Shown here: positions 3,977-34,178 of the stretch, one piece after another | How the letters are laid out: every line of letters begins with the position of its first letter | Position numbering within the stretch: position 1 is the first letter of the stretch | Assembly (NCBI GenBank): GCA_905235595.1 | Contig: CAJOMG010000005.1 | Span: 7,119-71,118 of the forward strand | DNA from: an uncultured Desulfovibrio sp. | Lineage (GTDB): Bacteria > Desulfobacterota > Desulfovibrionia > Desulfovibrionales > Desulfovibrionaceae | Length of the DNA stretch: 64,000 nucleotides | Direction: 5' to 3' | Notes under the pieces: model-generated | The model's database searches: none | The model's input: the letters and a program-made list of their open reading frames with translations, nothing else | What the model was told of the DNA's origin: nothing | Translations under genes and position numbers: made by a program

Positions 3977-4018
3977 CAGGAATCTGAGTTTATTTCCATC
4001 ATGGCAGAAGGAGGCAAT

Positions 4019-5119
4019 ATGAACATTTCCCGACGTACTTTCGTCAAAGGCGTGACCGCTACTGTTGGCGCAGCATCTGTAGGAGTACTACCCGGGCAGG
4101 CAGCAGAAGGAGACAATATCACAAATGGTGTGCCACCTGTGGCGGCAACCGATGGTGATATCTATATCCCCTATACGCAACGAAAAGGGGACGAATCCAT
4201 CGTTTGGTTTACCCGCGACCTGTCTGCTGCGGGCCTGCAAAAAATATTCGCCAAGGTCGGCAATGCTCTCACTGGAAAGATCGCCATCAAACTACATACT
4301 GGCGAGAAAAATGGACCCAACATCATCCCACGTCCGTGGGTGCAGGAACTGATTGCCAAGAATTTGCCTGGCGCAACTATTGTGGAAACGAATGCCTACT
4401 ATATGGGCGACCGCTACACCACGGCACAACACCGCGACACACTTAAAATCAACGGCTGGAACTTCGCCCCAGTGGACATCTTGGACGAGCATGGCACAGT
4501 CATGCTGCCTGTCAAGGATGGCAAATGGTTCACTGAAATGAGCGTGGGCAAAGGGCTGTTGACATATAATTCCCTGCTGGCACTTACACATTTCAAGGGC
4601 CATACAATGGGCGGCTTTGGCGGTTCAGACAAAAATATCGGCATCGGCTGTGCTGATGGCCGCATTGGTAAGGCCATGATTCACACGCACAAGGGTAAGG
4701 GCCAGTGGAGTATCACAGCCGAGGAATTCATGGAGCGCATGACGGAATCCACCAAGGCAACGGTGGACCATTTTTCCCCACATATCGCTTTTATCAATGT
4801 CCTTCGTAACATGTCCGTTTCCTGTGACTGCGAGGGTGTGGCTGCCCAGCCCGTGGTGACGCCCAATATCGGCATTGTCGCTTCGTTGGATATTCTGGCA
4901 GCTGACCAAGCCTCTGTTGATTTGGTTATGGCCCTTTCTGAAAAAGACCGCTCTGCCCTCGCTGAACGTATGAGCAGCCGCCACGGCTTCCGCCAGTTGA
5001 CCTACATGAAGGAACTGGGAATGGGCAATGACCGCTACCGGCTGCTGGATATGGATAATGGTGACACGCGCATTCTGCCCAAGAATGCCGTAGCCGACGT
5101 GAAGCCATTTACAGGCTAA
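4019..5119 (+). CDS. DUF362 family protein with twin-arginine (Tat) signal peptide
   Basis: RBS GAAGGAGG before ATG 4019. SRRTFVKG Tat motif. IKLHTGE, HFKGHTMGGFGGSDKNIGIGCA and SCDC motifs. Confidence 0.8.
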   Translation: MNISRRTFVKGVTATVGAASVGVLPGQAAEGDNITNGVPPVAATDGDIYIPYTQRKGDESIVWFTRDLSAAGLQKIFAKVGNALTGKIAIKLHTGEKNGPNIIPRPWVQELIAKNLPGATIVETNAYYMGDRYTTAQHRDTLKINGWNFAPVDILDEHGTVMLPVKDGKWFTEMSVGKGLLTYNSLLALTHFKGHTMGGFGGSDKNIGIGCADGRIGKAMIHTHKGKGQWSITAEEFMERMTESTKATVDHFSPHIAFINVLRNMSVSCDCEGVAAQPVVTPNIGIVASLDILAADQASVDLVMALSEKDRSALAERMSSRHGFRQLTYMKELGMGNDRYRLLDMDNGDTRILPKNAVADVKPFTG

Positions 5120-5279: not shown

Positions 5280-5684
5280 TTACACACACGGCTGTAGACA
5301 AGCCAATTCTTCGAGTAAATGCGCATCGGCAGGCAAAAAACCAAGTTCTAATGCTTCCTCTGGCGTCACCCAACGTACATTCTGCCCCTCCTTGCCACAG
5401 GGTTCCCCTGTAAAGGCCGTAACATGAAAAAAATGCAGAAGTACGGAAAAACCGCGTTCAGAATAATCATGTTCCAGATTTTTCCAGAACAGAGCCTTGC
5501 GTATGCTAATGCCTAACTCTTCTGCTAGTTCTCGATGCAAGGCCTCCAAGGCGTTTTCAGCACCTTCCAGCTTGCCTCCGGGGAATTCCCAAAATCCCTC
5601 CATAGGGGAACCTGTACGACGCTGCGCCGCCAAAAAACACCCTTTGCGCCAAATGATGCCCGCTGCCACTTCGATATGCCGCAT
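5280..5684 (-). CDS. mutT: 8-oxo-dGTP diphosphatase (NUDIX hydrolase)
   Basis: Nudix box WEFPGGKLEGAENALEALHRELAEELG. C-terminal FLPAD. Confidence 0.85.
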   Translation of the reverse strand: MRHIEVAAGIIWRKGCFLAAQRRTGSPMEGFWEFPGGKLEGAENALEALHRELAEELGISIRKALFWKNLEHDYSERGFSVLLHFFHVTAFTGEPCGKEGQNVRWVTPEEALELGFLPADAHLLEELACLQPCV

Positions 5685-5704: not shown

Positions 5705-7699
5705 CTATTGCGAAAGGAGTGTAGATTTTTTTCTTATAGCATCCATGCGTGCTTCAAGGGCTGTCATCTCATCCAACAAATCCTCACTGCGCTGTTTACA
5801 GCTTTCAAAAATCTTAAGCAGTTCGCTGGAACGGACATGGTTAGCATATACTTCAGGATCAGTCAGTTGCAATTCAGCCTCACTCTGCTCTTCCATTACC
5901 CGGGTTAGATCCATTTCCAGGGTTGCATATCGCTCCTGAAACGGCTTCAATTCCTTATGCAGGGCATTCCGTTTTTCTGCCTGTTCACGTTTGACACGTT
6001 TCTGCTCATCTCGTGACAGCGGCTGCACAGCAACAACAGATTCCCTCATTTCCTCCCGATCCAGGGGGATTACAGATGCTCTGTCGCCACTAGCACTAGC
6101 CACAGCACGCCGTTGAACATCATAAGCAGCAAAATTGGCATGAACAGTCAACCCTTTGCTACTCAACTCCCAGATTTCGGCCCCCACCTGTGAAAGCAGC
6201 CAACGGTCATGAGCAACCATCAATAGCGTACCAGAAAACTTTTGGAGAGCTGTTGCCAATGCCTCACGGCTTTCCAAATCCAGATGGTTGGTTGGTTCAT
6301 CCAACACAAGAAAATTGCAACGTTTCAGAAAAAGCGAGGCCAGTACAAGGCGGCTTTTCTCCCCACCGGAAAGTGCCCCTACCTGCCTATCAAAAAACTC
6401 CTGCCCAAGCAAAAAAAGGCCCAGCACGCTCATGAGTTCTTCTTCTGTAGTGTGGGGGTCAGAAAGACGACGTATTTCACCAAGCACCGTAGTATCAGGA
6501 CGAAGAGTTTCCATCTGATGCTGTGTGTAATAACCCATACGCATCTGCGAAGCAGTGACCATGTTGCCGCCACAGCGCTCGAGCGTGCCCGCCAACAGCT
6601 TGAGCAACGTGGACTTACCACTGCCATTGTGCCCTACAAGAGCCACTCGCTGTCCCCGATACAAGGTAAAAGTAAGTGGCGGCCACATAGACTTACCGTC
6701 AGGAAAACGAAAGGCAAGATCGGCTGCAGCCACGACAATCTTTTCTGAATGCGGAGCCTCTGGCCAAGTGAAATGCAATTCCTTACGTTTTGGCTCCGGT
6801 CGATAGTCCTCCAGCTCTTTCTCCAACTTTTTAGCCATCTTCTGTCGAGATCCGGCCTGACGAGCCTTGGTGGCCTTGGCGCGGAAACGTTCCACAAAAG
6901 CCATTTTACGTTCTAATTCGTCTCGCAAAGCACGGGCTTCACGTTCACGCTGCTGGTTGTATTCCTCCTGCTGGCGCAGGAATTGTGTATAGGTAACCTT
7001 ACGAAAGACCGGACGGGAAAGCCCCAAATAGAGGACATGCGTACCAACATTATCCATAAATACCCGGTCATGCGCCACAAAAACCAAGGCACCGTTAAAG
7101 CCCAACAAAAACGACTCAAGCCATTCTACCGCCTCCACATCCAAATGGTTAGTGGGTTCATCAAGCAGCAATACATCAGCCCCAGCCGTGAGCACACGGG
7201 CCAGTTTTGCACGTTCTCGCCAACCGCCAGAGAGTTGCCGCAATGTACGTCCCCACTTTTGCTCGCTGAAACCAAGGCCTGTAAGTACAGCCTTGGCGCG
7301 ATGCTCAGGATTATAACCGTAAAGAGCCTCTAACTCACTCTGCCGATGCATGAGTTCAGATAAGCGTGTAGCATCCTCGTGCGCGGCCGCGTCTTCCCAT
7401 TGAGCCCAAAAATCGTTCCAGTCATGCAGCACATCAAGTACGTAGGTCAACAAAGGGGTATCCAGTATATTTTCCGAAAATTCCTGCTCTACATAGCCTA
7501 AACGACAAGTACGTGGCAGTATAACCCGACCACCGTCTGGATTTTCCACTCCAGCCAGTAGGCGCAACAGTGTTGACTTTCCCGTACCATTAGGACCACA
7601 TACACACAGGCGCACTCCGGAATCAACTTCCAGAGAAAAATTGCTAAAGATATCTCGCCCACCAAAGGATTTAGATAGTTCCTGAATGGTGATTTTCAC
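5705..7699 (-). CDS. ABC-F family ATPase (YheS/Uup-like)
   Basis: Two ABC domains (GPNGTGKST, GHNGSGKST; LSGG; LLLDEPTNHLD twice), inter-domain linker, C-terminal coiled coil, no transmembrane segments. Confidence 0.92.
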   Translation of the reverse strand: MKITIQELSKSFGGRDIFSNFSLEVDSGVRLCVCGPNGTGKSTLLRLLAGVENPDGGRVILPRTCRLGYVEQEFSENILDTPLLTYVLDVLHDWNDFWAQWEDAAAHEDATRLSELMHRQSELEALYGYNPEHRAKAVLTGLGFSEQKWGRTLRQLSGGWRERAKLARVLTAGADVLLLDEPTNHLDVEAVEWLESFLLGFNGALVFVAHDRVFMDNVGTHVLYLGLSRPVFRKVTYTQFLRQQEEYNQQREREARALRDELERKMAFVERFRAKATKARQAGSRQKMAKKLEKELEDYRPEPKRKELHFTWPEAPHSEKIVVAAADLAFRFPDGKSMWPPLTFTLYRGQRVALVGHNGSGKSTLLKLLAGTLERCGGNMVTASQMRMGYYTQHQMETLRPDTTVLGEIRRLSDPHTTEEELMSVLGLFLLGQEFFDRQVGALSGGEKSRLVLASLFLKRCNFLVLDEPTNHLDLESREALATALQKFSGTLLMVAHDRWLLSQVGAEIWELSSKGLTVHANFAAYDVQRRAVASASGDRASVIPLDREEMRESVVAVQPLSRDEQKRVKREQAEKRNALHKELKPFQERYATLEMDLTRVMEEQSEAELQLTDPEVYANHVRSSELLKIFESCKQRSEDLLDEMTALEARMDAIRKKSTLLSQ

Positions 7700-8766
7700 A
7701 ACAATCCCTCACGGACATAGCCTTGTGCTGCTTCCAGCAGGCCGTCTTCCAGAGTGACGTGCGGCGTGAACCCCAATTCGTGACAAATGCGACTGCCTTC
7801 AGACAGCCATCCTTTCTGACAGGCCTCCCGGTATTTGTCTAAATTCCATTCAGGGGCACGTCGCAGTCCGTGGCCGTTCAAACGTCGGCACAAGATATCA
7901 GCCGCAAGCCCATATGCCGTTGAAAGCACGGCAGTAACGGCCATAATTGGTAAAGGGATGCGTAGAACACGCACAGTTTGCACTTCTCGACCCAAGGCAT
8001 GAGCCACAGCCTTCCCCATGGCTTCACAAAAGGAGGCCATTGTGTGTATTTGCCCATCGTTGAGATGATAAACGCCGCAGGCTTTGGGATGACAGGCACA
8101 AAGCACGGCACGAGCCATATCGTCCACATGTATGACACTTACGGGAAAGTCTCGCCCCCAGCCGGGACTTACAGCTATATTGTGTTTAACGCCGCGAAAT
8201 ACGGGTAAAAGCCCCTTATCCCCCGACCCATAGATAATGGGCGGCCGAAGCGTAACTAGACGGTCTCCCAAGGCATGCCCCAAAATCTGTTCCACAAGGA
8301 GTTTAGACCAGCCATACGCAGAAACCGGTGCAGGAGAGGTTGCTTCATTTGCACCGGGAGGAATCGCACAGGGGCCAGTAGCGGCTAAACTGGAAAGAAG
8401 AATGAAACGGGTATTGCCCTCCTTTCTTGTACATGCCTCGGACAAACGAAGAGCAGCCAATGCATTGGCACGCAGATACTCCTGCCAGCCCACACCAAAA
8501 AGCAAGGCCGCCATGTGAATAACCACATCCTTGCCATCAAGGACCTCAGCCAACCCTTCTCCCGTAGACAAGTCAGCCTGAACAACAGTAACATCTTTAG
8601 GTAAACGCGAAGTATCTGATGAGGCGCGGGTTAAACAAGTAACGACCGCCCCTGATGCCAGCAATTCTGGTAACAGGTGACGCCCCACAAAACCAGTCCC
8701 CCCCGTCAGCAAAACCTGCTTACCCGATAGATACTCCAAGGTATTTGTCACATGCGTCGCGCTCAT
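7696..8766 (-). CDS. NAD-dependent epimerase/dehydratase (extended SDR), ceramide-reductase-like candidate
   Basis: TGGTGFVG, SSLAA, YGWSK (YxxxK), RPPIIYGSGD. ATGA overlap with the upstream gene. Confidence 0.85.
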   Translation of the reverse strand: MSATHVTNTLEYLSGKQVLLTGGTGFVGRHLLPELLASGAVVTCLTRASSDTSRLPKDVTVVQADLSTGEGLAEVLDGKDVVIHMAALLFGVGWQEYLRANALAALRLSEACTRKEGNTRFILLSSLAATGPCAIPPGANEATSPAPVSAYGWSKLLVEQILGHALGDRLVTLRPPIIYGSGDKGLLPVFRGVKHNIAVSPGWGRDFPVSVIHVDDMARAVLCACHPKACGVYHLNDGQIHTMASFCEAMGKAVAHALGREVQTVRVLRIPLPIMAVTAVLSTAYGLAADILCRRLNGHGLRRAPEWNLDKYREACQKGWLSEGSRICHELGFTPHVTLEDGLLEAAQGYVREGLL

Positions 8767-9911
8767 GCAGCAATCTCTCGCCGATAAATACGGTAACGCT
8801 TGACCAGTCGACCGCAAAAGTCCTCTATAAGTTCGTCAATGGCCACATTATCCTCCAACACCCATGACCCCTCCACCCATTGGAAAAGGGGATGTTGCCG
8901 CGCTTTTTCCAACATGTAATCCAACAGCAACAAAGGCAGGCCAAGGAGACGAAATTCTTCACGAATCCCAAACAGAATGATACGATAGCCACCACGAATC
9001 TCTGAACGTGCACGCCACCAATGCCACGGAGCAGTAATACCCAACTTCCCCTTGAGTCTTCGCAGCAGTGGTGCCATATCGGGCAGGGCAACCATACCCG
9101 CAGCAGGTTCGTGACCATGAAAGAAAAGCACAAAAAAATCCGGATCCAGCACGCTTGACAATTCCTTGACGTGCCGGGCAGCCTCACCAGCGGAAAGTGG
9201 AGAAAATCCCCAGTTTTTCGCCCATGAAACTCTGTATAATTCCAGCATTGTCTGTATGTCTTCTGCAAGAGTACTTCTGCTGGAAGTGCGGCAGGTAAAG
9301 TGACCTTCAGCCTTGAGGCGCGCCACTTCTTCACTCAGCTGAGAAGGAAGAGCAAGCGACGCACGCTCAATGAGGTAGGCAAAAAGATCCTGCTCTTTAC
9401 GTAGATGCCAACTTTCAAGCAATACAGGGTAATACGGCGGATTCCAAGGCATCATGATGGCAGGCGGCAGGTTAAACCCATGCACTAGCAAGCCGCAGGT
9501 GTAATTAGATGAAGGATTCAATGGACCACGCATAAAGACCATGCCCTCAGCTTTCAGCCAGCTATATGCGGCGTCAAGCAGAGCATGTGCTGCCTCATGG
9601 TCATTGACACATTCAAAAAAACCAAAAGCGCCACAGTTCTCACCAGCGTAGGCATTGTATTTTTCGTCAACAATCGCGGCAATGCGCCCCACGGGACGCC
9701 CATTGCGGACAGCCAAAAAAAGTTCACGTCGAGCCGTTTCCCAAAAGGGATGCTGCCCAGGAGTGAGCAGGCTCATTGTTTCAGAGCGCAAATCAGGAGT
9801 CCATTGCCGACTTGCTGCATGCAAATGGAAAGGGAAATCCACAAATGCGTTAAAATCAATAGCAGAACGAACAGGGATAACAATGGGCGGCATGGTATTT
9901 CTCAGAATCAT
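8763..9911 (-). CDS. GNAT-fold acyltransferase of the YghO / bacterial ceramide synthase-like family
   Basis: PVGRIAA, GAFGFFEC, MRGPLNP, CGLLVHGF, PPAIMMPWNPPYY, SWAKNWGF, SWVLEDN. ATGA overlap with the pyrD stop. Confidence 0.7.
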   Translation of the reverse strand: MILRNTMPPIVIPVRSAIDFNAFVDFPFHLHAASRQWTPDLRSETMSLLTPGQHPFWETARRELFLAVRNGRPVGRIAAIVDEKYNAYAGENCGAFGFFECVNDHEAAHALLDAAYSWLKAEGMVFMRGPLNPSSNYTCGLLVHGFNLPPAIMMPWNPPYYPVLLESWHLRKEQDLFAYLIERASLALPSQLSEEVARLKAEGHFTCRTSSRSTLAEDIQTMLELYRVSWAKNWGFSPLSAGEAARHVKELSSVLDPDFFVLFFHGHEPAAGMVALPDMAPLLRRLKGKLGITAPWHWWRARSEIRGGYRIILFGIREEFRLLGLPLLLLDYMLEKARQHPLFQWVEGSWVLEDNVAIDELIEDFCGRLVKRYRIYRREIAA

Positions 9912-10837
9912 GAATCCAGCTGCAAACTGCCACAAAAGGAGGTAAGATTATCAATACCCAACCGATCGCAAACAGCGGGTAGCGTCTGCGTCAGGGCAAA
10001 AGCGCAATCGGGGCGCACAAAATTGCCCGTGCCCACCTGTACGGCCTTGGCACCTACCAACATAAATTCCAGCGCGTCCTCCGCTGTCAGAATGCCACCC
10101 AATCCCACAACGGGAATCTTTACAGCTCGAGCTACTTGCCATACGCAACGCAACGCCACTGGCTTGATGGCTGGCCCGGAGAGCCCGCCCACCACATTTG
10201 CCAGCGAAGGACGTCGAGTTTGAATATCTACGGCCATACCAAGCAAGGTATTGATACAGGAAATACTGTCCGCCCCAGCATCTTCCACACTTCGCGCCAT
10301 AAGGGCAATATCCGTAACATTGGGTGAAAGCTTGACCATGATGTGCTTATGGGGCGCAGCACGACGTACGGCAGATGTAACAGCAGAGGCTAAAGCCGGA
10401 TCCTGCCCAAAGAGAGCCCCACCTGCCTTCACATTGGGGCAGGAAACATTAACCTCTAGTGCTGCGACACCTTCTTCCAGATCCAGCCGAGCCGCAAGTT
10501 CTGCAAATTCGTCGACAGACGCAGCATAGATATTTGCAATAATTGAAGTATTATGCCAAGGCAAACGTGGCAGTTTTTCAAGGCAAAAGGATTCTACACC
10601 GTCATTCTGCAATCCAACGGCATTAAGCATGCCCGCTGTGGTTTCAATGATACGTGGGGAGGAATTGCCTTCACGAGGATGCAGGGAAAGACCTTTTACA
10701 ACTATGCCTCCCAGTTCGGAAAGGTCACCATAGGTGACAAATTCCAGCCCGTAACCAAAGGTACCCGAGGCTGTGAGCACGGGATTCTTGAGAACGAGGT
10801 CACGGGTTTGCCCTTTAAGTGTGACAGAAAGATCCAT
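9908..10837 (-). CDS. pyrD: Dihydroorotate dehydrogenase B, catalytic subunit
   Basis: LKNPVLTASGTFGYG, NVSCPNVKAGG, KLSPNVTDI, GGLSGPAIKP. Confidence 0.95.
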   Translation of the reverse strand: MDLSVTLKGQTRDLVLKNPVLTASGTFGYGLEFVTYGDLSELGGIVVKGLSLHPREGNSSPRIIETTAGMLNAVGLQNDGVESFCLEKLPRLPWHNTSIIANIYAASVDEFAELAARLDLEEGVAALEVNVSCPNVKAGGALFGQDPALASAVTSAVRRAAPHKHIMVKLSPNVTDIALMARSVEDAGADSISCINTLLGMAVDIQTRRPSLANVVGGLSGPAIKPVALRCVWQVARAVKIPVVGLGGILTAEDALEFMLVGAKAVQVGTGNFVRPDCAFALTQTLPAVCDRLGIDNLTSFCGSLQLDS

Positions 10838-10868
10838 CTTGCTATCTCCATGGCCGAAATGCACCTAA

Positions 10869-11678
10869 CTACAGTGCAACCTGACTAGCCCAAAACACCG
10901 GACCATTGGTGCATACCTGCACATGGCGCTCGCGTTTTTCACCAACAGGCCATGCCGCCGTAGTTTTTGTCACACAACCAAGGCATGCTCCCACACCGCA
11001 TGCCATACGTGTCTCCAATGAAATCTGACATCGCACTCCCAGTTCTATGGCAAATGTCTGCACAGTACGCAAAAAAGGCGTGGGTCCGCATGCCAGGACC
11101 AAGCCCTTCAGTTCGGCATATTCGCGCATACGCTCCTGAATTGTAAAAATAAAATTATCCAGATCACCATTTTCAGGTTCGCGTAGGCTGTCCACAGGTA
11201 TGTGTTCGTTTATACTGTCCACGGGATAGCAACTGATGTGCTCACGATGGCCAAACAACATGGAAACATTCCAAGGTTTAAGATGCTCGCTCACATACCC
11301 CACAAAAGGCACAATCCCCATACCTCCGGCCAAAAGCAGCGTGGGAGTATCCGGTTCCATGACAAAACCGTTACCCAATGGTCCCCACACGCGCACCTTA
11401 TCGCCAGGCCGAAGCTCGGCCATGCGTCTGGTACCCCTGCCTCGCACCTGAAAAAAACAGATCATATGGCGAGCTGTCATATGACAAATAGCCAATGGCC
11501 GAGCCCAAGGGATATCAAAACCAAAATTATGGGGTCGCAGCATCACAAACTGGCCCGGACACCAAATATTCCAATTGGGACGGTCAAGGCGCAGTGCAAA
11601 AAAACGACTCTCATTGCCCGTTTGTCCAAACGGCACAAGATCAAGGACTTCAAGTTCGCAGGAATTAGGTTGTGACAT
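10869..11678 (-). CDS. pyrK: Dihydroorotate dehydrogenase electron transfer subunit
   Basis: PGQFVML, RPLAI, GPLGNGF, AGGMG, ACGP, ETRMACGVGACLGC...VCTNGPVF. Adjacent to pyrD. Confidence 0.93.
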   Translation of the reverse strand: MSQPNSCELEVLDLVPFGQTGNESRFFALRLDRPNWNIWCPGQFVMLRPHNFGFDIPWARPLAICHMTARHMICFFQVRGRGTRRMAELRPGDKVRVWGPLGNGFVMEPDTPTLLLAGGMGIVPFVGYVSEHLKPWNVSMLFGHREHISCYPVDSINEHIPVDSLREPENGDLDNFIFTIQERMREYAELKGLVLACGPTPFLRTVQTFAIELGVRCQISLETRMACGVGACLGCVTKTTAAWPVGEKRERHVQVCTNGPVFWASQVAL

Positions 11679-11806
11679 TGGTCTGTTATAGGCACACAGA
11701 AGGTGAACGGTCAACAAGAATGAAACCCCACCACACACCGCTAATTGAATTGACAGGGCCTTTTCAGCCCTTAGTTTGAGGAGTATATTTGGGGTCAGGA
11801 GTTATT

Positions 11807-12883
11807 ATGAAGAATGATATCTTTGCCACACGACGTGAAAAATTGCGCAGACTTGTGCACAAGCGAGGTCTTGATGCACTGCTTATCAGCCAGGCCGCCA
11901 ACAGGTTTTATCTCTCCGGATTCGAGTTGCATGACCCTCAATATAACGAAAGCGCTGGCAGCATAGTCATTACGGCCGATGGAAACGACTGGTTGGCAAC
12001 TGACCTTCGCTATAGTGAAACAGCTCTTCGCCTGTGGGACAAAGACCGTATTTTCATCTATAAAAATCACACTGCAGATCAAATCAATACATTATTACGA
12101 CGCTGCGGTAGCCGCATTGGCTTAGAGGCCCGAGGCATTAGCCTTGACTTCGCACGCAATCTTGCAAAGACAGGTTCTGGCCTCTATCTTGAAGCTGCAG
12201 ACGGCCTTGTAGAGCACTTACGTTGCATTAAAGACTCTGCAGAAGTCGCAGCACTCCAACAATCTTTTGAACTCAACCACAAACTCCTTCACTGGATTGA
12301 AGGGCAACTTGAACCGGGCCGTAGTGAACGTGAGATCAGCTGGATGATTGAGCGCTATTTCCGTGAGCATGGCGCCTCAGAACTGGCCTTTGCCAATATT
12401 GTAGCAGTAGGCCGCAATGCAGCCATCCCCCATGCCGTACCTGGTCAAGATACTATTACAAACAACTGTCCCGTTCTAATAGATGTCGGCTGCCGTGTGA
12501 ACAATTACTGTTCGGACCAAACCCGCACTTTTTGGGTAGGACCAACTCCCACAGACGACTATCAACATGCCCTGGAACTGACCCACAAAGCCCAAAATTT
12601 CGCCATCGAAAAAATGCACCCTGGCATGCCGTTAGCTGAGGTTTACGCTTTAGCCCGTTCAGTATTTGAACAGGCAGGTGTTGCTACGGCTTTTACCCAC
12701 GGGCTTGGACATGGTGTTGGACTTGAAACCCACGAAGCCCCAAGCCTATCTCCCATAGCCCAGGGCGTTCTCACACCGGGCATGGTTGTAACTGTAGAAC
12801 CAGGCCTGTACTATCCACAATGGGGAGGAGTTCGCTGGGAGTACACTGTGCTTGTTGAAGAAAACGGTGTAAAGATTCTTTAA
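11807..12883 (+). CDS. Xaa-Pro aminopeptidase (M24 family)
   Basis: IDVGC, YCSDQTRT, FTHGLGHGVGLETHEAP, TVEPGLY, GVRWE. Confidence 0.92.
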   Translation: MKNDIFATRREKLRRLVHKRGLDALLISQAANRFYLSGFELHDPQYNESAGSIVITADGNDWLATDLRYSETALRLWDKDRIFIYKNHTADQINTLLRRCGSRIGLEARGISLDFARNLAKTGSGLYLEAADGLVEHLRCIKDSAEVAALQQSFELNHKLLHWIEGQLEPGRSEREISWMIERYFREHGASELAFANIVAVGRNAAIPHAVPGQDTITNNCPVLIDVGCRVNNYCSDQTRTFWVGPTPTDDYQHALELTHKAQNFAIEKMHPGMPLAEVYALARSVFEQAGVATAFTHGLGHGVGLETHEAPSLSPIAQGVLTPGMVVTVEPGLYYPQWGGVRWEYTVLVEENGVKIL

Positions 12884-12945: not shown

Positions 12946-13512
12946 ATGAACCAAACGATGGACTTTACCCATATTTTTCTTGTAGGTCCACGGGGCGCAG
13001 GGAAGACCACAGTTGGCAAACTCCTTGCTAAACGTCTGCTGCTGCCTTTTGAGGATACAGATGCCTTTCTGCAACACCAAGAAGGTCGTAGTGTGCGTGA
13101 AATTGTGCATTCTGAAGGATGGTCAGGCTTTCGCTTACGAGAATGCACAACACTGCGCACAGTGACTAATAGTATGTCACATGGAGGCGTCATCGCCACA
13201 GGTGGTGGTATTGTGCTGGACAATGGGAATTGCATGTTTATGCGGGAGCATGGCACGGTTTTCTACCTGTCAGCTTCGGCAGAAGAATTGACGCAACGCT
13301 TGGCCGCATCCCCCCTTGCTTCTCAACGGCCTCCTCTTACCGGAGCTCCTCTTCTAGAAGAAATGACTTCAGTGCTAGCAGAACGCCATGATCTGTATTG
13401 TTCAGTTGCGCATCACATAATTAACGCCTTATATACCCCCAGCACACTTTGCGAGGAGATAGCGACAATACTCCAGCCTCTCCAACATAATGATCTAAAA
13501 AGAAAAGACTAG
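12946..13512 (+). CDS. aroL: Shikimate kinase
   Basis: GPRGAGKTTVG P-loop, DTD, FRLRE, IATGGGIV, RPPL. Confidence 0.9.
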   Translation: MNQTMDFTHIFLVGPRGAGKTTVGKLLAKRLLLPFEDTDAFLQHQEGRSVREIVHSEGWSGFRLRECTTLRTVTNSMSHGGVIATGGGIVLDNGNCMFMREHGTVFYLSASAEELTQRLAASPLASQRPPLTGAPLLEEMTSVLAERHDLYCSVAHHIINALYTPSTLCEEIATILQPLQHNDLKRKD

Positions 13513-13635
13513 TGACATATTGTAAAAAAATGTTGTGAAGCTTACACATTTTGTCTCCAATACCCTTTGACATAATAGGTTCAAGCAGCTATTCTCAAGT
13601 CCGGTAATTATTTCGCTTTTAGGGGAGGAAGCGGT

Positions 13636-14055
13636 ATGCTGGATCTCAATATTACCATGCTTTTTCAGCTGGTGAATTTTTTTGTAGCCCTTTTTGTACT
13701 CAATATCCTCCTGATCCGGCCTATCCGGGACATCATAAAAAAGCGTAAAGGCATTATGGATGACATGTCTGAAGAGGCATCTTCCTTTGAAAGCCAAGCA
13801 ACAGAACGGCTAAATAACTATGAGGCTACATTGGCGCACGCACGGCAGGATGCAAGTGCCGCTCGTGAGGATGGTCGCACGGCCGGCATACAAGAACAAC
13901 AGAAGCTCGTTGCCGATGCGCAACAGAAAGCACACAGTATACTTGCAGAGGCACGCACTTCGCTTCAGGCTCAAGCCTCTGAAGCACTTGCTGCACTACG
14001 CAAGCAAACAGACGCCATGGCCAGCACTCTGGCTGATCGTCTCATCAAGGGGTAA
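13636..14055 (+). CDS. atpF: ATP synthase F0 subunit b'
   Basis: N-terminal TM helix (LFQLVNFFVALFVLNILLIRPI) then coiled coil. First gene of the atp operon. Confidence 0.88.
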   Translation: MLDLNITMLFQLVNFFVALFVLNILLIRPIRDIIKKRKGIMDDMSEEASSFESQATERLNNYEATLAHARQDASAAREDGRTAGIQEQQKLVADAQQKAHSILAEARTSLQAQASEALAALRKQTDAMASTLADRLIKG

Positions 14056-26317: not shown

Positions 26318-26551
26318 CTAGGGGGCTGGGTGATGGGGAATATCCCTCTCATGAGCGCTGGCAAGATTACGATTCCACGCGCGGATGGCCGCCCCTTGAG
26401 AAACAGACCACTGTTGCGAAGTCTGCCCGCAAGAGCAAACAACACGCCAGACCTCTTGCCGCCGACCTGGTGGCAACATGGATTCAAGGTGAACATTAGT
26501 GCCACCGCAGGCAAGACAAGGACGGATAGTGTGTGGATCGAGTTCTTTCAT
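26318..26551 (-). CDS. Small zinc-ribbon protein, Lar (restriction alleviation)-like
   Basis: IRPCLACGG ... VVCSCG ... AAIRAWN matches the Lar pattern PCPFCG...CxxCG...A...WN. Confidence 0.6.
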   Translation of the reverse strand: MKELDPHTIRPCLACGGTNVHLESMLPPGRRQEVWRVVCSCGQTSQQWSVSQGAAIRAWNRNLASAHERDIPHHPAP

Positions 26552-26639
26552 GCAGACTACTGTAGCAGCATTGCCATTGCTGCACAAGGACTGTACATAT
26601 TCTTACATCATTAAATTTTTATCTAAGGAGAGTAGTCAT

Positions 26640-27833
26640 ATGCCAACTCTTTCCTTTCAACACAAACCTCATCTGCGCCGCTGCCTGTGGATATTACTGT
26701 TGGCTGTTCCCGCAGTGTTGATTACTTCGCGTTTCCTTTTCAGCAACCACACACAACGCCGCATCATGCCTATGGAAGCTCCTCCGGTGCGTGTAGCCGT
26801 TGCCTTGGCACAGGATGTTCCCTATTTACTTAGCGGCCTTGGTACGGTGCAACCATCAAGTGACGTTCTGGTTACCAGCCGCGTGGACGGGCACCTACAA
26901 TGCCTTCACTTCAAAGAAGGACAACGTGTCAAAGCAGGAGATCTCCTCGCCGAAATCGATCCCCGCCCCTTTGAGGCAGAACTGACGCAAGCTCAGGGCA
27001 CATTGACGAGAGATCTGGCCCTGCTAGATAATGCCCGTAAGGACATGGTTCGTTATGCAACTCTGTCCAAAAACGATTTTATTGCCCGGCAGGAGTATGA
27101 CAATCAACGTGCCCTGGTACGTCAGTATGAAGGCACGGTGCAGGCCGACAAAGCCGCCGTTGAAGCCGCACGCTTGAAGCTGGAATATAGCCGCATCACT
27201 GCCCCGTCATCGGGTCGACTTGGCCTGCGTACGGTAGACGTAGGCAACATGATTAAAAGTTCGGACACGTTGGGTATTGTCCGCATCACTGAAACACGCC
27301 CCTGTGATGTGCTTTTTACCCTGCCAGATATTTATGTTCCCCTGGTCATTCAGGCTTTGCGTACTTCAAGGGATGGCGCTGGACCGCTGGTTCAGGCATG
27401 GGACAGAAAGCAACAAAAACTGCTGGATACTGGTTATCTTATGTCACTGGACAATCGCATTGACACCGCTACGGGTACCGTGCGCTTAAAGGGGCGTTTT
27501 CTTAATGCGGATGAAACACTGTACCCCAATCAATTTGTAAATGCACGGCTGCTGGTGCGGGTATTGCCTAAAGCTATAACCGTTCCCACTGCGGCAGTGC
27601 AGACAGGCGTTCGCGCCTCATATCTCTATGTAGTTGTGCGTACTGAGAACAATCAAGGAACCGTTGTCATGCGCGAGGTAAAAACTGGTATTGCCACAGA
27701 TGCACTAACAGTCATCGAAGAAGGTCTAAAAGCAGATGAACTGGTTGTGATAGACGGCATAGATCGGCTTCGCGACGGCCTGACCGTGACAATAGCCACT
27801 TCAGTAGAAACACCTAAGGCAGAATCTTTCTGA
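26640..27833 (+). CDS. mdtA: RND efflux periplasmic adaptor MdtA
   Basis: [54 protein letters not shown]. Confidence 0.9.
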
Positions 27834-27843
27834 GACAAAGCAG

Positions 27844-30800
27844 ATGAACCTTTCCCGTATTTTTATTCTCCGGCCGGTCGCTACTTCGCTACTCATGGCG
27901 GCGCTGCTACTGTCTGGCATACTGGGCTATCATTACCTTCCAGTGTCAGCCCTACCGCAGATAGACTACCCCACCATTCAAGTGCAGACGTACTATCCCG
28001 GTGCCGCTCCTGACGTCATCGCGGCCGTTATTACGGCCCCGCTGGAGCGGCAGTTTGGTGCCATGCCTGGTTTAACGCAAATGCACTCTTTGTCCTCTGC
28101 AGGAGCATCTGTAGTAACGCTACTCTTCGATCTCTCTGTAGCGCTGGATGTGGCTGAACAGGAAGTTCAGGCAGCCATCAATACAGCAAATAATCTTCTT
28201 CCACAGGATTTGCCTGCGCCACCCGTATACAACAAAGTCAATCCCGCAGATCCACCAGTTATGACCCTGGCTGTGACCAGCAGTGCTATCCCTTTGACCC
28301 ACCTAGAAGATTTGGTGGATACGCGGATGGCCCAAAAAATATCTCAACTACCCGGCGTGGGTCTGGTAACTCTATCCGGCGGGCAACGACCTGCTGTACG
28401 TGTGCAGGTGAATCCACGTGCTCTGGCTGCCGCTGGTCTAACACTGGCACAAGTGCGTTCTGCTATCGTTCAAGCTAATGTCAATACTGCCAAAGGTAGT
28501 TTTGACGGACCTGAACGTGCCATGAGCATTGACGCCAACGATCAGCTGACCTCGGCAAAGGAGTATGCGTCGACGATAATTGGATACAAGGACGGCGCTC
28601 CACTGCGACTGGGTGATATCGCTGATGTTGTTGAAGGGGCTGAAAATGCCCGTTTAGGGGCTTTTGTGGCCGGGAAAAATTCTGATTTCAACCCTGCCAT
28701 TGTGCTTTCTATCCAACGCCAGCCAGGTGCAAATGTCATTTACGTGGCTGACCGTGTGCGGCAACTGCTCCCGCTTCTACAAGAAACACTCCCCGGCAAT
28801 GTAGAGGTTCGCGTTGTAACAGACAGAACTATTACTATCCGCGCCACCGTAAAAGACGTACAAATGGAACTGCTTCTGTCCGTTGTACTTGTCATCGGCG
28901 TCATCTGGTTTTTTTTGCGTAACGGACGTGCCACAATCATTCCCGCACTGGCAGTTCCCCTTTCCCTTATAGGGACCTTGGGTGTCATGTATCTGGCCGG
29001 ATATTCCCTCAACAATCTTACACTCATGGCTCTCGTCATTGCCACCGGTTTTGTAGTAGATGATGCCATTGTAGTAATTGAAAACATTGTCCGCTATCTA
29101 GGGCAGGGACAATCGCCTGTACAGGCGTCGCTAATAGGCGCAGGCCAGATTGGCTTTACCATTATTTCGCTAACCATTTCACTTGTCGCAGTACTCATTC
29201 CTCTGCTTTTCATGGGAGATGTCGTAGGGCGGCTGTTCCGCGAATTTGCCGTTACTCTTGCCGTAACGATACTCGTTTCTGCTGGCATCTCTCTCACACT
29301 CACGCCTATGTTATGCGCCATAATGTTGCGACCAGAGCAAAAGTCACATCCTGATGAAGGCTTTTTTACACACCTGCTCACTTGGTATGAACAGGCATTA
29401 GACGCAGTTCTTGCCCATCAGAGGCCCATGTTTGCTGTGGCAGCAGGGACCCTGGTGCTCACCATTGCTCTGTATATCCTAGTGCCCAAGGGTTTTTTTC
29501 CAGTGCAGGATACGTGCGTCATACAAGGCATTGCTGAAGCTGCTCAAGATTCTTCCTTTATGGCTATGGCCAACCGGCAGGAAATCTTAGCAAAGGCCAT
29601 TCTGCAAGATCCTGGAGTGGATAGCGTTGTCTTTCTTGTTGGCGTAGACGGCATCAACCCCAGCATGGGAACATCACGTCTTACTATCGCATTAAAGGCA
29701 TTATCAGAACGTGATTCCCGAGCTCCGGCCATCGCCCGTCGCATTATGACAAAGGTTGCCAATATCCCTGGCCTAACCCTCTACTTGCAACCCGTGCAGG
29801 ATCTTACCATTGAAGACAGAATATCACGCACCCAGTATCAGTTTACGGTTGAAGCCTTGAATCGGGAACAGTTAGACGTATGGATACCCAAAATTCTTAG
29901 ACAGCTAGCCCAACAGCCTGAACTTGAACTTGTAACCAGCGACTATCAAAATCCTGGCAGTATGCTCTGGCTCACCATCGACAGAGATACCGCAGGCCGT
30001 CTGGGAGTGAGCATGTCAGACATTGACAACGCCCTCTACGACGCTTTGGGTCAACGACTCATCTCAACCATCTTTACACAGACAAACCAATACAAGGTGG
30101 TGCTGGAAGTAGCTCCGGCCTTTAGACAGGAACCACAGTCGCTGCAAAATCTCTATGTGAACGGGGCAGATGGAACGCCCATCCCATTAACAAGTTTGAT
30201 CACGGCAGAAGAACGCCCAATGCCACTTTCCATAGCAAGGCAGGGTCAGTTCCCCGTGGCAACCATCTCCTTCAACGTTGCGGATAATTCTTCGCTAGGA
30301 GCAGCTGTCAGAGCTCTTGCCAAGACAGAAGCCCAACTATCTATTCCAAACGCTCTACGTACGGAGCTACAGGGTTCGGCAAAGGCCTTCCTGGCATCCA
30401 GCGACAATCAGGTCTGGTTAATCCTGGCGGCAGTAATTACAGTGTATATTGTCTTGGGTGTGCTCTATGAAAGCTACATCCATCCCGTAACCATATTATC
30501 CACTCTTCCATCGGCTGGTGTAGGAGCACTGCTAGCGCTCATGGCTTTCCATATGGACTTGGGTGTGATGGGCATCATTGGGATTATTCTCCTCATTGGT
30601 ATTGTCAAAAAAAACGCCATCATGATGATTGACTTTGCCCTTGATGCAGAACGCAACGAGGGCAAATCCCCCCAGGCTGCCATTCGTCAGGCATGCCTGC
30701 TGCGATTGAGGCCAATTCTTATGACTACCATGGCGGCGCTTCTGGGTGCCCTGCCTCTCATGCTCGGATGGGGCATGGGTGCTGAACTTAGACGCCCATT

Positions 30801-30975
30801 AGGCGTAACCATGGTTGGTGGACTAATATGCAGCCAGGTACTCACCCTGTTCACCACGCCTGTTATCTATCTCTGGTTTGACCGCATAAGCCGTCGCTTG
30901 CGTGGTCTTGTTACTGCAGGCAACACAGCACATAACTTGACAGAGATAGACACCTCAACAGGGGAATCCCCATGA
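27844..30975 (+). CDS. mdtB: RND efflux transporter MdtB
   Basis: [56 protein letters not shown]. Confidence 0.93.
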
Positions 30976-33900: not shown

Positions 33901-34178
33901 TTGACGTAGCACTAGCCATATCACGCGCACGCTCTCTTACACCGGAACAAGCAATTTATGAAGCATGCCTCCTGCGTTTTCGGCCCATTATGATGACAAC
34001 AGCCGCAGCTATTTTAGGTGCTATACCACTCGCGCTGGGACAAGGAGACGGCGCAGAGCTGCGCCAACCCCTCGGCGTGACCATTGTGGGTGGATTGCTG
34101 GTTAGTCAGTTGCTGACACTCTATACCACCCCTGTAGTCTATCTTTGCCTGGATCGTTTTCGCCACGATACCCACTAG
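30972..34178 (+). CDS. mdtC: RND efflux transporter MdtC
   Basis: [28 protein letters not shown], second RND of a tandem pair, ATGA coupling. Confidence 0.92.

What the first reader, a model, noticed from the sequence alone, without database searches (positions are those of the whole stretch)
7696..9911. Coupled GNAT plus SDR pair resembling bacterial ceramide synthase and ceramide reductase inside the pyrK-pyrD operon
Seen: pyrD, the GNAT gene, the SDR gene and the ABC-F gene are chained by 4-bp stop/start overlaps. The GNAT has the FGFFE / RGP / CGLLV.GF / PP.IMM.WNP.YY / NWGF / SW.LEDN pattern I associate with the YghO-like family. Known: in Caulobacter, ceramide is made by serine palmitoyltransferase, a GNAT-type bacterial ceramide synthase of this family, and an epimerase-like SDR reductase. 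Inference: this organism may make sphingolipids or a related N-acyl lipid, which is not a textbook trait of Desulfovibrio. The spt gene is not in this window.
Basis: partly seen in the sequence, partly recalled or inferred. Interest (0 to 1): 0.65.

Follow-up and report, generated by a model that had tools for sequence, protein, structure and literature searches.

The report
Ceramide-synthase-like gene pair in Desulfovibrio
A gut Desulfovibrio carries, tightly packed behind its pyrimidine gene pyrD, an acyltransferase and a reductase that are clear relatives of the two enzymes other bacteria use to finish ceramide. The first enzyme of that pathway (Spt) was not found nearby, so whether the product is a true sphingolipid or another N-acyl lipid is still open.

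Summary
On the minus strand, pyrK, pyrD, a 376/382-aa tandem-GNAT gene, a 356-aa extended SDR, an ABC-F gene and a NUDIX gene form a tight chain with ATGA/ATGA/GTGA stop/start overlaps. The order and the overlaps recur in every Desulfovibrionaceae relative fetched.

- **GNAT family:** it is YghO-like (30% identity to E. coli YghO, E 2e-55) with a tandem-GNAT fold (pLDDT 91.6).
- **Link to ceramide synthesis:** relatives at 33-39% identity are fused to, or sit directly beside, serine-palmitoyltransferase-like genes in 38 of 80 genomes sampled. A Streptomyces cluster (Spt, ACP, acyl-ACP ligase, GNAT, SDR) has the same GNAT-then-SDR order; its GNAT is 39% and its SDR 37% identical to ours over full length.

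The bCerS/CerR resemblance is therefore real homology. Three limits remain:
- No Spt, ACP or acyl-ACP ligase lies in the 64-kb window or within 10 kb of the pair in any Desulfovibrionaceae locus.
- The Desulfovibrio GNAT groups (75% bootstrap) with proteins that are never next to Spt; several of these lie beside a giant type-I FAS/PKS.
- The Caulobacter reference proteins and the rest of the genome could not be reached.

Verdict: a new variant of the bCerS/CerR module; ceramide-type product plausible, not shown.

The parts
10869..11738 (-). pyrK (electron-transfer subunit of dihydroorotate dehydrogenase B), first gene of the chain. Homologues are 267-269 aa, so the true start is probably downstream of the GTG at 11738.
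   Evidence: PF10418 6e-15; NCBIfam PRK00054; homologue lengths.
9908..10864 (-). pyrD (class 1B dihydroorotate dehydrogenase, catalytic subunit).
   Evidence: PF01180 1e-73; NF005574 392 bits, above its cut-off.
8763..9911 (-). Tandem-GNAT N-acyltransferase of the YghO/bCerS-like family. It is 382 aa from ATG 9911 (ATGA overlap with the pyrD stop) or 376 aa from ATG 9893 (the start most homologues use).
   Evidence: No Pfam, NCBIfam or PDB sequence hit. 30% identity, E 2e-55 to E. coli YghO. 39% identity, E 1e-76 to the GNAT of a Streptomyces Spt cluster. AF2 pLDDT 91.6; Foldseek top hits are tandem GNATs, E 1e-13.
9204..9215 (-). NWGF motif (residues 227-230 in 376-aa numbering), the most conserved block of the family. 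In Desulfovibrionaceae it is followed by S instead of the usual V.
   Evidence: Invariant W224, W228, G229, F230, P232; V231 to S; codons read.
7696..8766 (-). Extended SDR (NAD-dependent epimerase/dehydratase fold), CerR-like, 356 aa. Start ATG 8766 overlaps the GNAT stop (ATGA). No N-terminal signal peptide is visible.
   Evidence: PF01370 1.6e-29. 33%, E 1e-28 to the SDR beside the Spt::GNAT fusion. 37%, E 3e-45 to the Streptomyces cluster SDR. Best PDB hit only 58 bits.
8683..8706 (-). Rossmann dinucleotide-binding motif TGGTGFVG (SDR residues 21-28).
   Evidence: Read from the translation.
8302..8316 (-). SDR catalytic YxxxK (Y151-G-W-S-K155).
   Evidence: Read from the sequence; aligned with YGRSK/YGASK of the Spt-cluster SDRs.
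5705..7699 (-). ABC-F family ATPase (a soluble Uup/YheS-like translation factor type, not a transporter). GTG start overlaps the SDR stop (GTGA).
   Evidence: Two ABC_tran domains, ABC_tran_Xtn and ABC_tran_CTD; NCBIfam ABC-F models. The overlap is conserved in L002-L004, L090 and L091.
5280..5684 (-). NUDIX (MutT-like) hydrolase, last gene of the conserved chain.
   Evidence: PF00293 1.7e-17; conserved position in L002, L009, L010, L090 and L091.

Best explanation
The two genes encode a coupled lipid N-acyltransferase/ketoreductase module of the bacterial ceramide type.

Proposed mechanism: the tandem-GNAT protein (YghO/bCerS-like) transfers a fatty acyl chain from acyl-CoA or acyl-ACP to the free amine of a long-chain alpha-amino-ketone (a 3-ketosphinganine-like base). 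The extended SDR (CerR-like) then reduces the 3-keto group with NAD(P)H, giving a dihydroceramide-like N-acyl amino-alcohol lipid. The amino-ketone would come from an alpha-oxoamine synthase (Spt or Spt-like) encoded elsewhere in the genome.

In Desulfovibrionaceae the pair is translationally coupled to pyrD upstream and to an ABC-F gene downstream, so it would be made constitutively with housekeeping genes.

Shown: homology of both proteins to the Spt-cluster enzymes; the tandem-GNAT fold; intact SDR cofactor and catalytic motifs; conserved gene order and overlaps.

Inferred: the substrates, the order of the two reactions (taken from the Caulobacter model, PMC11087976), the existence of an Spt elsewhere, and co-transcription.
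For: 1. Fusion evidence: P0209 and P0147 join an Spt-like domain to this GNAT family. P0209 matches PDB 8guh/3a2b at E 3e-107 and NCBIfam serine palmitoyltransferase NF047600 at 470 bits (below the model's 640-bit cut-off). Its GNAT part is 36-37% identical to ours, with an overlapping SDR upstream and PAP2 downstream.
2. Neighbourhood: in 38 of 80 genomes from about 20 phyla, a GNAT 33-39% identical to ours lies within 3 kb of an Spt-like gene (nearly all within about 160 nt). An SDR of our type lies within 3 kb of the GNAT in 26 of them.
3. Streptomyces locus L008 holds PAP2, ACP, KS, Spt, ACP and an AMP-ligase, divergent from GNAT then SDR then acyl-CoA dehydrogenases and a desaturase. The GNAT-to-SDR order is as in the window, with 39% (E 1e-76) and 37% (E 3e-45) full-length identity. 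Papers state that Actinobacteria carry the three ceramide genes (PMC12134224).
4. The SDR tree mirrors the GNAT tree: the nearest SDRs outside the family are L068 and the Streptomyces cluster SDR. This indicates inheritance as a pair.
5. The SDR matches Spt-cluster SDRs at 100-165 bits over its whole length, including the C-terminal extension, against at most 58 bits for any solved epimerase.
6. AF2 model pLDDT 91.6; tandem-GNAT fold.
7. Lack of adjacency does not mean lack of Spt. The Black Sea study reports Cloacimonadota and Bacteroidota with Spt but with bCerS and CerR elsewhere (PMC11334938), and the Cloacimonadota loci here (L067, L075, L084) likewise show no adjacent Spt.
8. The pair and its overlaps are conserved across Desulfovibrionaceae down to about 54% GNAT identity to the window protein.
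Against: - No Spt, ACP or acyl-ACP ligase in the 64-kb window or in the flanks of eight Desulfovibrionaceae loci, even at E<1e-2.
- The Desulfovibrionaceae GNAT groups (NJ bootstrap 75%) with a Desulfobacterota/Nitrospirota-type clade in which no member has an adjacent Spt. Six members (L006, L012, L015, L021, L023, L026) sit beside a roughly 2600-aa type-I FAS/PKS plus a PPTase instead.
- Two aromatic positions that are at least 90% conserved in Spt-linked members are small residues here (F89 to A, F266 to G), and V231 is S.
- E. coli YghO keeps 46 of 56 columns conserved among Spt-linked members, although E. coli has no sphingolipids.
- No paper found reports sphingolipids in Desulfovibrio. 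A detailed lipidome of D. alaskensis G20 lists no ceramide (PMC5193443), though it is unknown whether G20 has the pair.
- Caulobacter CerR is periplasmic (PMC11087976); this SDR shows no signal peptide.
- The experimentally characterised Caulobacter proteins were not compared directly.
Confidence: 0.45

Rival explanations
1. Spt-independent N-acyl lipid. The pair belongs to a diverged subfamily that N-acylates a different amine (an amino acid, phosphatidylethanolamine, an amino-sugar lipid or a polyketide-derived amine), with the SDR reducing a keto group on that lipid. In relatives the acyl chain would come from the neighbouring type-I FAS/PKS; in Desulfovibrio it would come from ordinary fatty-acid synthesis.
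For: - The window GNAT clusters with Spt-unlinked proteins (bootstrap 75%).
- Six of these lie beside an NMO-KS-AT-ACP-KR-DH megasynthase and a PPTase. L012 reads PKS, PPTase, GNAT, SDR, flanked by a sugar transferase, a GT4 and an AsnB-like gene.
- B12-radical-SAM/DUF4070 and LPG_synthase_C neighbours point to membrane-lipid tailoring.
- Pocket-type substitutions F89 to A/I and F266 to G/V are shared by Desulfovibrionaceae and the orphan clade.
Against: - Desulfovibrionaceae loci contain no PKS or PPTase next to the pair.
- Distances from the window GNAT to Spt-linked members (1.12-1.26) are only slightly larger than to orphan members (0.96-1.2).
- The nearest SDRs include the Streptomyces ceramide-cluster SDR.
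- A keto-reductase has no obvious role in N-acyl-PE or N-acyl amino-acid synthesis.
Confidence: 0.35
2. Sugar-nucleotide tailoring. The SDR would be a nucleotide-sugar epimerase or 4-ketoreductase and the GNAT an amino-sugar N-acyl/acetyltransferase for LPS or exopolysaccharide.
For: - The SDR hits the epimerase/dehydratase Pfam families; the best solved relatives are MoeE5 and GalE.
- The best structural neighbours of the GNAT include a glucosamine N-acetyltransferase and mycothiol synthase MshD.
- Glycosyltransferase genes occur near the pair in L012 and about 6 kb away in L002.
Against: - Similarity to sugar enzymes is weak (at most 58 bits, N-terminal Rossmann half only), against 100-165 bits over the full length to Spt-cluster SDRs.
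- The GNAT family is repeatedly fused or adjacent to Spt.
- No glycan genes lie in the conserved Desulfovibrionaceae chain.
Confidence: 0.08
3. The adjacency has no functional meaning. Two unrelated housekeeping enzymes (or, as E. coli YghO is annotated, a 'DNA-binding transcriptional regulator') merely share an operon with pyrD.
For: - The E. coli K-12 RefSeq record names YghO a putative DNA-binding transcriptional regulator.
- The operon mixes unrelated functions (pyrimidine synthesis, ABC-F, NUDIX).
Against: - The fold is a tandem GNAT, not a DNA-binding protein.
- GNAT and SDR co-occur next to each other in many phyla and their trees agree.
- The 4-nt overlap between them is conserved.
Confidence: 0.04

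Closest known systems
Bacterial ceramide synthase bCerS (Caulobacter CCNA_01212 / CC_1154) and its homologues in Spt clusters
   Same: - Same protein family as the GNATs fused or adjacent to Spt: 33-39% identity over the full length, with all family motifs.
- Tandem-GNAT fold.
- Followed directly by a CerR-like SDR, as in the Streptomyces and Gemmatimonadota clusters.
   Different: - Not next to Spt, ACP or an acyl-ACP ligase.
- Sits in a pyrKD / ABC-F housekeeping operon.
- Falls in a subclade without Spt linkage.
- Carries F89 to A, F266 to G and V231 to S.
- A direct comparison with the Caulobacter protein was not possible.
Ceramide reductase CerR (Caulobacter CCNA_01222 / CC_1164), an NDUFA9-like extended SDR
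   Same: - Extended SDR with TGxxGxxG and YxxxK.
- 33-39% full-length identity to SDRs in Spt-GNAT clusters.
- Adjacent to the GNAT.
   Different: - Caulobacter CerR is reported to be periplasmic (PMC11087976); this protein has no visible signal peptide, and its Rossmann fold starts at residue 17.
- The Caulobacter sequence was not compared directly.
E. coli YghO (b2981)
   Same: 30% identity, E 2e-55 over the whole protein. It lacks any Pfam model, as the window protein does. It keeps 46 of the 56 columns that are at least 90% conserved in Spt-linked members.
   Different: Distant outgroup on a long branch (100% bootstrap separation). No adjacent SDR. The host makes no sphingolipids and the function is unknown.
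OleD (2-alkyl-3-oxoalkanoate reductase) and HpnA, the best-scoring named NCBIfam models for the SDR
   Same: Extended SDRs that act on lipid keto groups or in lipid pathways; best NCBIfam hits at 1.7e-17 and 2.7e-17.
   Different: Scores of 63-64 bits are far below the model cut-offs (580 and 368), so the SDR is not a member of either.

Membership tests
YghO-like tandem-GNAT family | Full-length sequence similarity to E. coli YghO | tested here: met
   30% identity over 375 columns, E 2e-55.
YghO-like tandem-GNAT family | GNAT superfamily fold (two GNAT-like halves) | tested here: met
   AF2 pLDDT 91.6, pTM 0.89. Foldseek top hits are tandem GNATs (2wpw, 5kgh, 7q3a, MshD), E 1e-13 to 1e-8. Relatives P0122 and P0147 hit PF00583 at 2e-15 and 5e-10.
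Bacterial ceramide synthase (bCerS) | Homology to an experimentally characterised bCerS (Caulobacter CCNA_01212, S. aurantiacus, P. gingivalis) | not testable with these tools
   The reference sequences could not be obtained and the defining paper is not held. Proxy: 39% identity, E 1e-76 to the GNAT of a Streptomyces Spt/ACP/ligase cluster, and 36-37% to the GNAT part of an Spt::GNAT fusion.
Bacterial ceramide synthase (bCerS) | Spt (serine palmitoyltransferase) encoded in the same genome | not testable with these tools
   Absent from the 64-kb window and from 10-kb flanks in eight Desulfovibrionaceae loci.
Bacterial ceramide synthase (bCerS) | Phylogenetic placement among Spt-linked members | tested here: not met
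   NJ with 200 bootstraps: Desulfovibrionaceae plus L006 90%; plus the Spt-unlinked 'orphan' clade 75%. The whole set is separated from E. coli YghO at 100%. This is a distance method on 87 sequences, so it is only indicative.
Bacterial ceramide synthase (bCerS) | N-acylation of 3-ketosphinganine or sphinganine | not testable with these tools
   A biochemical assay is needed.
Ceramide reductase (CerR)-type extended SDR | NAD(P)-binding TGxxGxxG and catalytic YxxxK | tested here: met
   TGGTGFVG at residues 21-28 and Y151-x3-K155, read and aligned with cluster SDRs.
Ceramide reductase (CerR)-type extended SDR | Specific full-length similarity to SDRs of Spt-bCerS clusters, beyond general SDR similarity | tested here: met
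   33-39% identity and 100-165 bits over about 340 residues, against at most 58 bits to any PDB chain and 64 bits to any NCBIfam model.
Ceramide reductase (CerR)-type extended SDR | Periplasmic location as shown for Caulobacter CerR | tested here: inconclusive
   No N-terminal signal-like hydrophobic segment is seen in the translation. No predictor was run, and whether the Caulobacter protein has a recognisable signal is not stated in PMC11087976.
pyrK-pyrD (class 1B DHODH) operon | Adjacent pyrK and pyrD on one strand with the pair immediately downstream | tested here: met
   The same order occurs in L002-L004, L009, L011 and L091.

The most novel reading that the evidence does not exclude
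Host-associated Desulfovibrio constitutively make a so far undescribed N-acyl amino-alcohol lipid with a bCerS/CerR-type module that has become independent of a linked Spt. Two versions are possible. Either these gut sulfate reducers are overlooked sphingolipid producers, with an unlinked or unusual Spt. Or the module has been re-tooled for a different amine substrate, as hinted by its PKS-linked cousins and its altered pocket residues.
Probability: 0.35. Interest if true: 0.75.

Novelty: new variant of a known kind. Interest (0 to 1): 0.55.

Why it matters
In the gut, sphingolipid production is attributed essentially to Bacteroidota, and these lipids signal to the host. Desulfovibrio is a common gut pathobiont linked to inflammation. 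If it makes ceramide-like lipids from a constitutively expressed operon, that adds a second bacterial source and a new candidate host-interaction molecule.

More generally, the data show that the YghO/bCerS family has at least three contexts: linked or fused to Spt, linked to a type-I FAS/PKS, and linked only to an SDR. This gives a concrete route to the unknown function of E. coli YghO and to the substrate range of bacterial 'ceramide synthases'. It also cautions against calling sphingolipid potential from bCerS/CerR homologues alone.

Tried and rejected
- **Family and structure libraries on the GNAT:** Pfam and NCBIfam gave no hit, even at E 10. A PDB sequence search gave only noise.
- **Defining paper:** the bCerS/CerR paper (PMID 34969973 / PMC8891067) is not held. 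The Black Sea paper's supplements contain no sequences or Desulfovibrio data.
- **Literature:** searches for Desulfovibrio sphingolipids, bCerS or oxoamine synthase returned only gut-correlation studies or nothing.
- **Second homologue search:** using a divergent Desulfovibrionaceae GNAT as query, to see whether model strains (D. vulgaris, D. alaskensis) carry the pair, returned only gut or rumen Desulfovibrio and Desulfovibrionaceae MAGs and isolates. This is uninformative for the model strains.
- **Expression:** the sequencing-run search found only DNA metagenomes (ruminant and other gut), so there is no expression evidence.
- **Promoter/terminator scan:** the operon shows only chance-level matches.
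- **Short contig:** P0121 sits on a contig too short to give context.
- **Ornithine-lipid synthase considered and rejected:** Desulfovibrio ornithine lipid is made by OlsF (PMC5193443).
- **Sister relationship to Actinobacteria rejected:** the first NJ tree suggested it, but bootstrap support is 5%.
- **Third homologue search not used:** it was not spent on an Spt query, because only the 120 best hits are listed and absence of Desulfovibrio among them would mean nothing.

Full report
**1. What is in the sequence.**
On the minus strand of window 5.2-11.8 kb lie six genes:
- pyrK, 10869-11738
- pyrD, 9908-10864 (PF01180, 1e-73)
- a 382-aa ORF with no Pfam or NCBIfam hit, 8763-9911
- an extended SDR, 7696-8766 (PF01370, 1.6e-29)
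- an ABC-F ATPase, 5705-7699
- a NUDIX hydrolase, 5280-5684

The junctions read ATGA (9911-9908), ATGA (8766-8763) and GTGA (7699-7696). They coincide with invariant or nearly invariant columns of a family alignment.

One caveat concerns the GNAT start. Most homologues are 376 aa, which corresponds to ATG 9893, 14 nt after the pyrD stop. L002 starts its GNAT 2 nt after the pyrD stop, whereas L009 and L091 do show the 4-nt pyrD/GNAT overlap. Either way the genes are packed without room for a promoter. A consensus promoter/terminator scan gave only chance-level matches.

**2. Conservation.**
The order pyrK, pyrD, GNAT, SDR, ABC-F, NUDIX recurs in every Desulfovibrionaceae locus obtained (L002-L004, L009-L011, L090, L091), down to about 54% GNAT identity to the window protein. 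The 4-nt GNAT/SDR and SDR/ABC-F overlaps recur as well. The window itself comes from a gut (probably ruminant) metagenome lineage. Only DNA runs hold it, so there is no transcript evidence. Named hits in two homologue searches are all gut or rumen 'Desulfovibrio sp.', D. desulfuricans or 'Desulfovibrionaceae bacterium'.

**3. What the GNAT is.**
- It is 30% identical over its full length to E. coli K-12 YghO (E 2e-55). YghO likewise has no Pfam model.
- An AlphaFold2 model built on 20 homologues is confident (pLDDT 91.6, pTM 0.89).
- Its best structural matches are tandem-GNAT enzymes: the clavulanate tandem GNAT 2wpw, glucosamine N-acetyltransferase 5kgh, MAB_4324 and MshD.
- An exhaustive HMMER search finds 6007 clusters at 50% identity with E<=1e-3 and 952 with E<=1e-30. 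After the Desulfovibrio clade (59%) the next representatives are 43-38% identical.

**4. Link to ceramide synthesis.**
Four independent observations tie this family to Spt.

(a) Fusions. P0209 (780 aa) and P0147 carry an N-terminal alpha-oxoamine synthase. Its best matches are Sphingobacterium serine palmitoyltransferase (PDB 8guh/3a2b, E 3e-107) and NCBIfam NF047600 (470 bits, below the model's 640-bit cut-off). It is fused to a C-terminal YghO-like unit 36-37% identical to ours. In locus L005 this gene is preceded by an overlapping 336-aa SDR and followed by a PAP2 gene.

(b) A canonical cluster. Streptomyces sp. Wb2n-11 locus L008 reads PAP2, ACP, KS / Spt, ACP, AMP-ligase, divergent from GNAT, SDR, two acyl-CoA dehydrogenases and a desaturase. 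This matches the five-gene Caulobacter set (spt, acpR, aasR, cerR, cerS) described in PMC11324152. Its GNAT is 39% identical to ours (E 1e-76) and its SDR 37% (E 3e-45), both over the full length and in the same order.

(c) A genome survey. A scan of one genome per species with a family alignment returned 80 loci from about 20 phyla. Local tblastn shows an Spt-like gene within 3 kb of the GNAT in 38 of them, nearly all within about 160 nt. An SDR of our type lies within 3 kb of the GNAT in 26.

(d) SDR specificity. The window SDR matches these cluster SDRs at 100-165 bits along its whole length, including the C-terminal extension. Its best solved relatives (MoeE5, GalE) reach 58 bits over the Rossmann half only, and its best NCBIfam models (OleD, HpnA) reach 63-64 bits.

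The SDR has intact TGGTGFVG and Y151xxxK155 motifs. The SDR tree places the Desulfovibrionaceae SDRs with L068, the Streptomyces cluster SDR and L012, mirroring the GNAT tree. The pair has therefore travelled together.

**5. What argues for caution.**
- No Spt, ACP or acyl-ACP ligase is detectable in the 64-kb window or in the flanks of any Desulfovibrionaceae locus, even at E<1e-2.
- In a neighbour-joining tree with 200 bootstraps, Desulfovibrionaceae (100%) join L006 (90%). Together they then join a clade of Desulfobacterota, Nitrospirota and unclassified-MAG proteins (75%), none of which has an adjacent Spt.
- Six members of that clade lie beside a roughly 2600-aa single-polypeptide type-I FAS/PKS (NMO-type ER, KS, AT, ACP, KR, DH) and a PPTase. 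L012 reads PKS, PPTase, GNAT, SDR, flanked by a sugar transferase, a GT4 and an AsnB-like gene.
- Other members are flanked by B12-radical-SAM/DUF4070 genes or by an LPG_synthase_C gene.
- Of 56 alignment columns at least 90% conserved in 40 Spt-linked GNATs, Desulfovibrionaceae keep 44, but E. coli YghO keeps 46. These columns therefore mark the family's chemistry, not its substrate.
- The differences include F89 to A, F266 to G (F to I/V in the orphan clade), V231 to S and G163 to H, which could reshape a binding pocket (this is inference).
- No paper found reports sphingolipids in Desulfovibrio. [quoted passage not shown] It is unknown whether G20 carries the pair.
- On the other side, missing adjacency is not missing Spt. 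The Black Sea study found Spt-like genes in Cloacimonadota and Bacteroidota that are not near bCerS or CerR, and it names Desulfobacterota among the abundant Spt-encoding groups (PMC11334938). The Cloacimonadota loci in this set show the same lack of adjacency.

**6. Most likely mechanism.**
The GNAT most likely N-acylates a long-chain amino-ketone, and the SDR reduces the keto group. This gives a dihydroceramide-like lipid, in the reaction order proposed for Caulobacter (PMC11087976). The amino-ketone would come from an unlinked Spt-type enzyme. I put this at about 0.45.

The main rival, at about 0.35, is that this subclade has shifted to another amine or lipid substrate and is Spt-independent. 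A role in sugar-nucleotide tailoring (about 0.08) or a meaningless adjacency (about 0.04) is unlikely.

Homology, fold, motifs and synteny are shown. Substrates, product, co-transcription and the existence of an Spt are inferred.

**7. Comparison with the known and verdict.**
The pair is homologous to the bCerS/CerR module and has the same gene order as in actinobacterial and Gemmatimonadota clusters. It differs in five ways:
- it has no linked Spt, ACP or ligase;
- it is embedded, with translational coupling, in a pyrKD / ABC-F / NUDIX housekeeping operon;
- it falls in an Spt-unlinked subclade;
- it carries altered conserved residues;
- its SDR has no visible export signal, whereas Caulobacter CerR is periplasmic.

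Membership of the YghO-like family and of the CerR-like SDR group is met. Membership of functional bCerS is not established: the clade test is not met, and the Spt co-occurrence and biochemical tests could not be done here.

I rate it a new variant of a known kind, interest 0.55.

Noticed in passing
L005:10001-12343 (protein P0209); also P0147: Natural fusion of an Spt-like alpha-oxoamine synthase to a YghO-like tandem GNAT, with an overlapping SDR upstream (L005:9003-10013) and a PAP2 gene downstream. It is a compact three-gene candidate ceramide-phosphate cluster.
   Followed up: partly
L012:1562-9340, L015:12031-19977, L021:148-7032, L023:11145-18827, L026:12439-20526; also L006: The closest relatives of the window GNAT outside Desulfovibrionaceae lie beside a roughly 2600-aa single-polypeptide type-I FAS/PKS (NMO-ER, KS, AT, ACP, KR, DH; the N-terminal roughly 330 aa has no Pfam hit) plus a PPTase. 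The product is unknown.
   Followed up: partly
L014:8436-9929 and 11111-12700; L026:8649-9752; L021:8368-9273: B12-binding radical-SAM/DUF4070 genes flank the orphan-clade GNAT on both sides in L014 and on one side in L026. An LPG_synthase_C (aminoacyl-PG synthase C-terminal domain) gene follows it in L021. Together these suggest membrane-lipid tailoring neighbourhoods.
   Followed up: no
window 8763-9893, residues 89, 163, 231, 266 (376-aa numbering): Positions at least 90% conserved in 40 Spt-linked GNATs are changed in all five Desulfovibrionaceae sequences: F89 to A, G163 to H, V231 to S (NWGF-S-P), F266 to G. The orphan clade shares the loss of both aromatics.
   Followed up: partly
P0122 (784 aa); L082:11283-12398 and L084:6842-7933: The family also occurs as a tandem duplication within one protein (P0122), and as a second, divergent paralogue (27% identity) next to the Spt-linked copy in L082 or next to another copy in L084.
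   Followed up: no
L001:9044-10216 (E. coli K-12 yghO) and L001:10147-11341 (IS5LO): E. coli YghO is annotated as a putative DNA-binding transcriptional regulator, although the family fold is a tandem GNAT. In K-12 an IS5 element overlaps the 5' end of the gene. The neighbours are yghQ (a putative transporter) and yghRST (putative ATP-binding proteins).
   Followed up: no
window 4001-5119 (+): A DUF362 protein (PF04015, 4e-35) with a twin-arginine-like N-terminus (NISRRTFVKGV...). It lies just beyond the NUDIX end of the operon, on the opposite strand.
   Followed up: no
window 11738-11789 and about 13000-14000: pyrK and an M24 peptidase gene (11789-12883) diverge from a roughly 50-nt spacer. 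The cumulative GC skew reaches its minimum near 13-14 kb, where gene orientation switches from the minus to the plus strand. The ATP synthase operon follows at about 13.6-19.1 kb.
   Followed up: no
window 26499-34178 (+): An HlyD-type membrane-fusion gene is followed by two roughly 1050-aa ORFs. Their sizes and order are typical of an RND efflux system, but only the first was scanned against Pfam.
   Followed up: no
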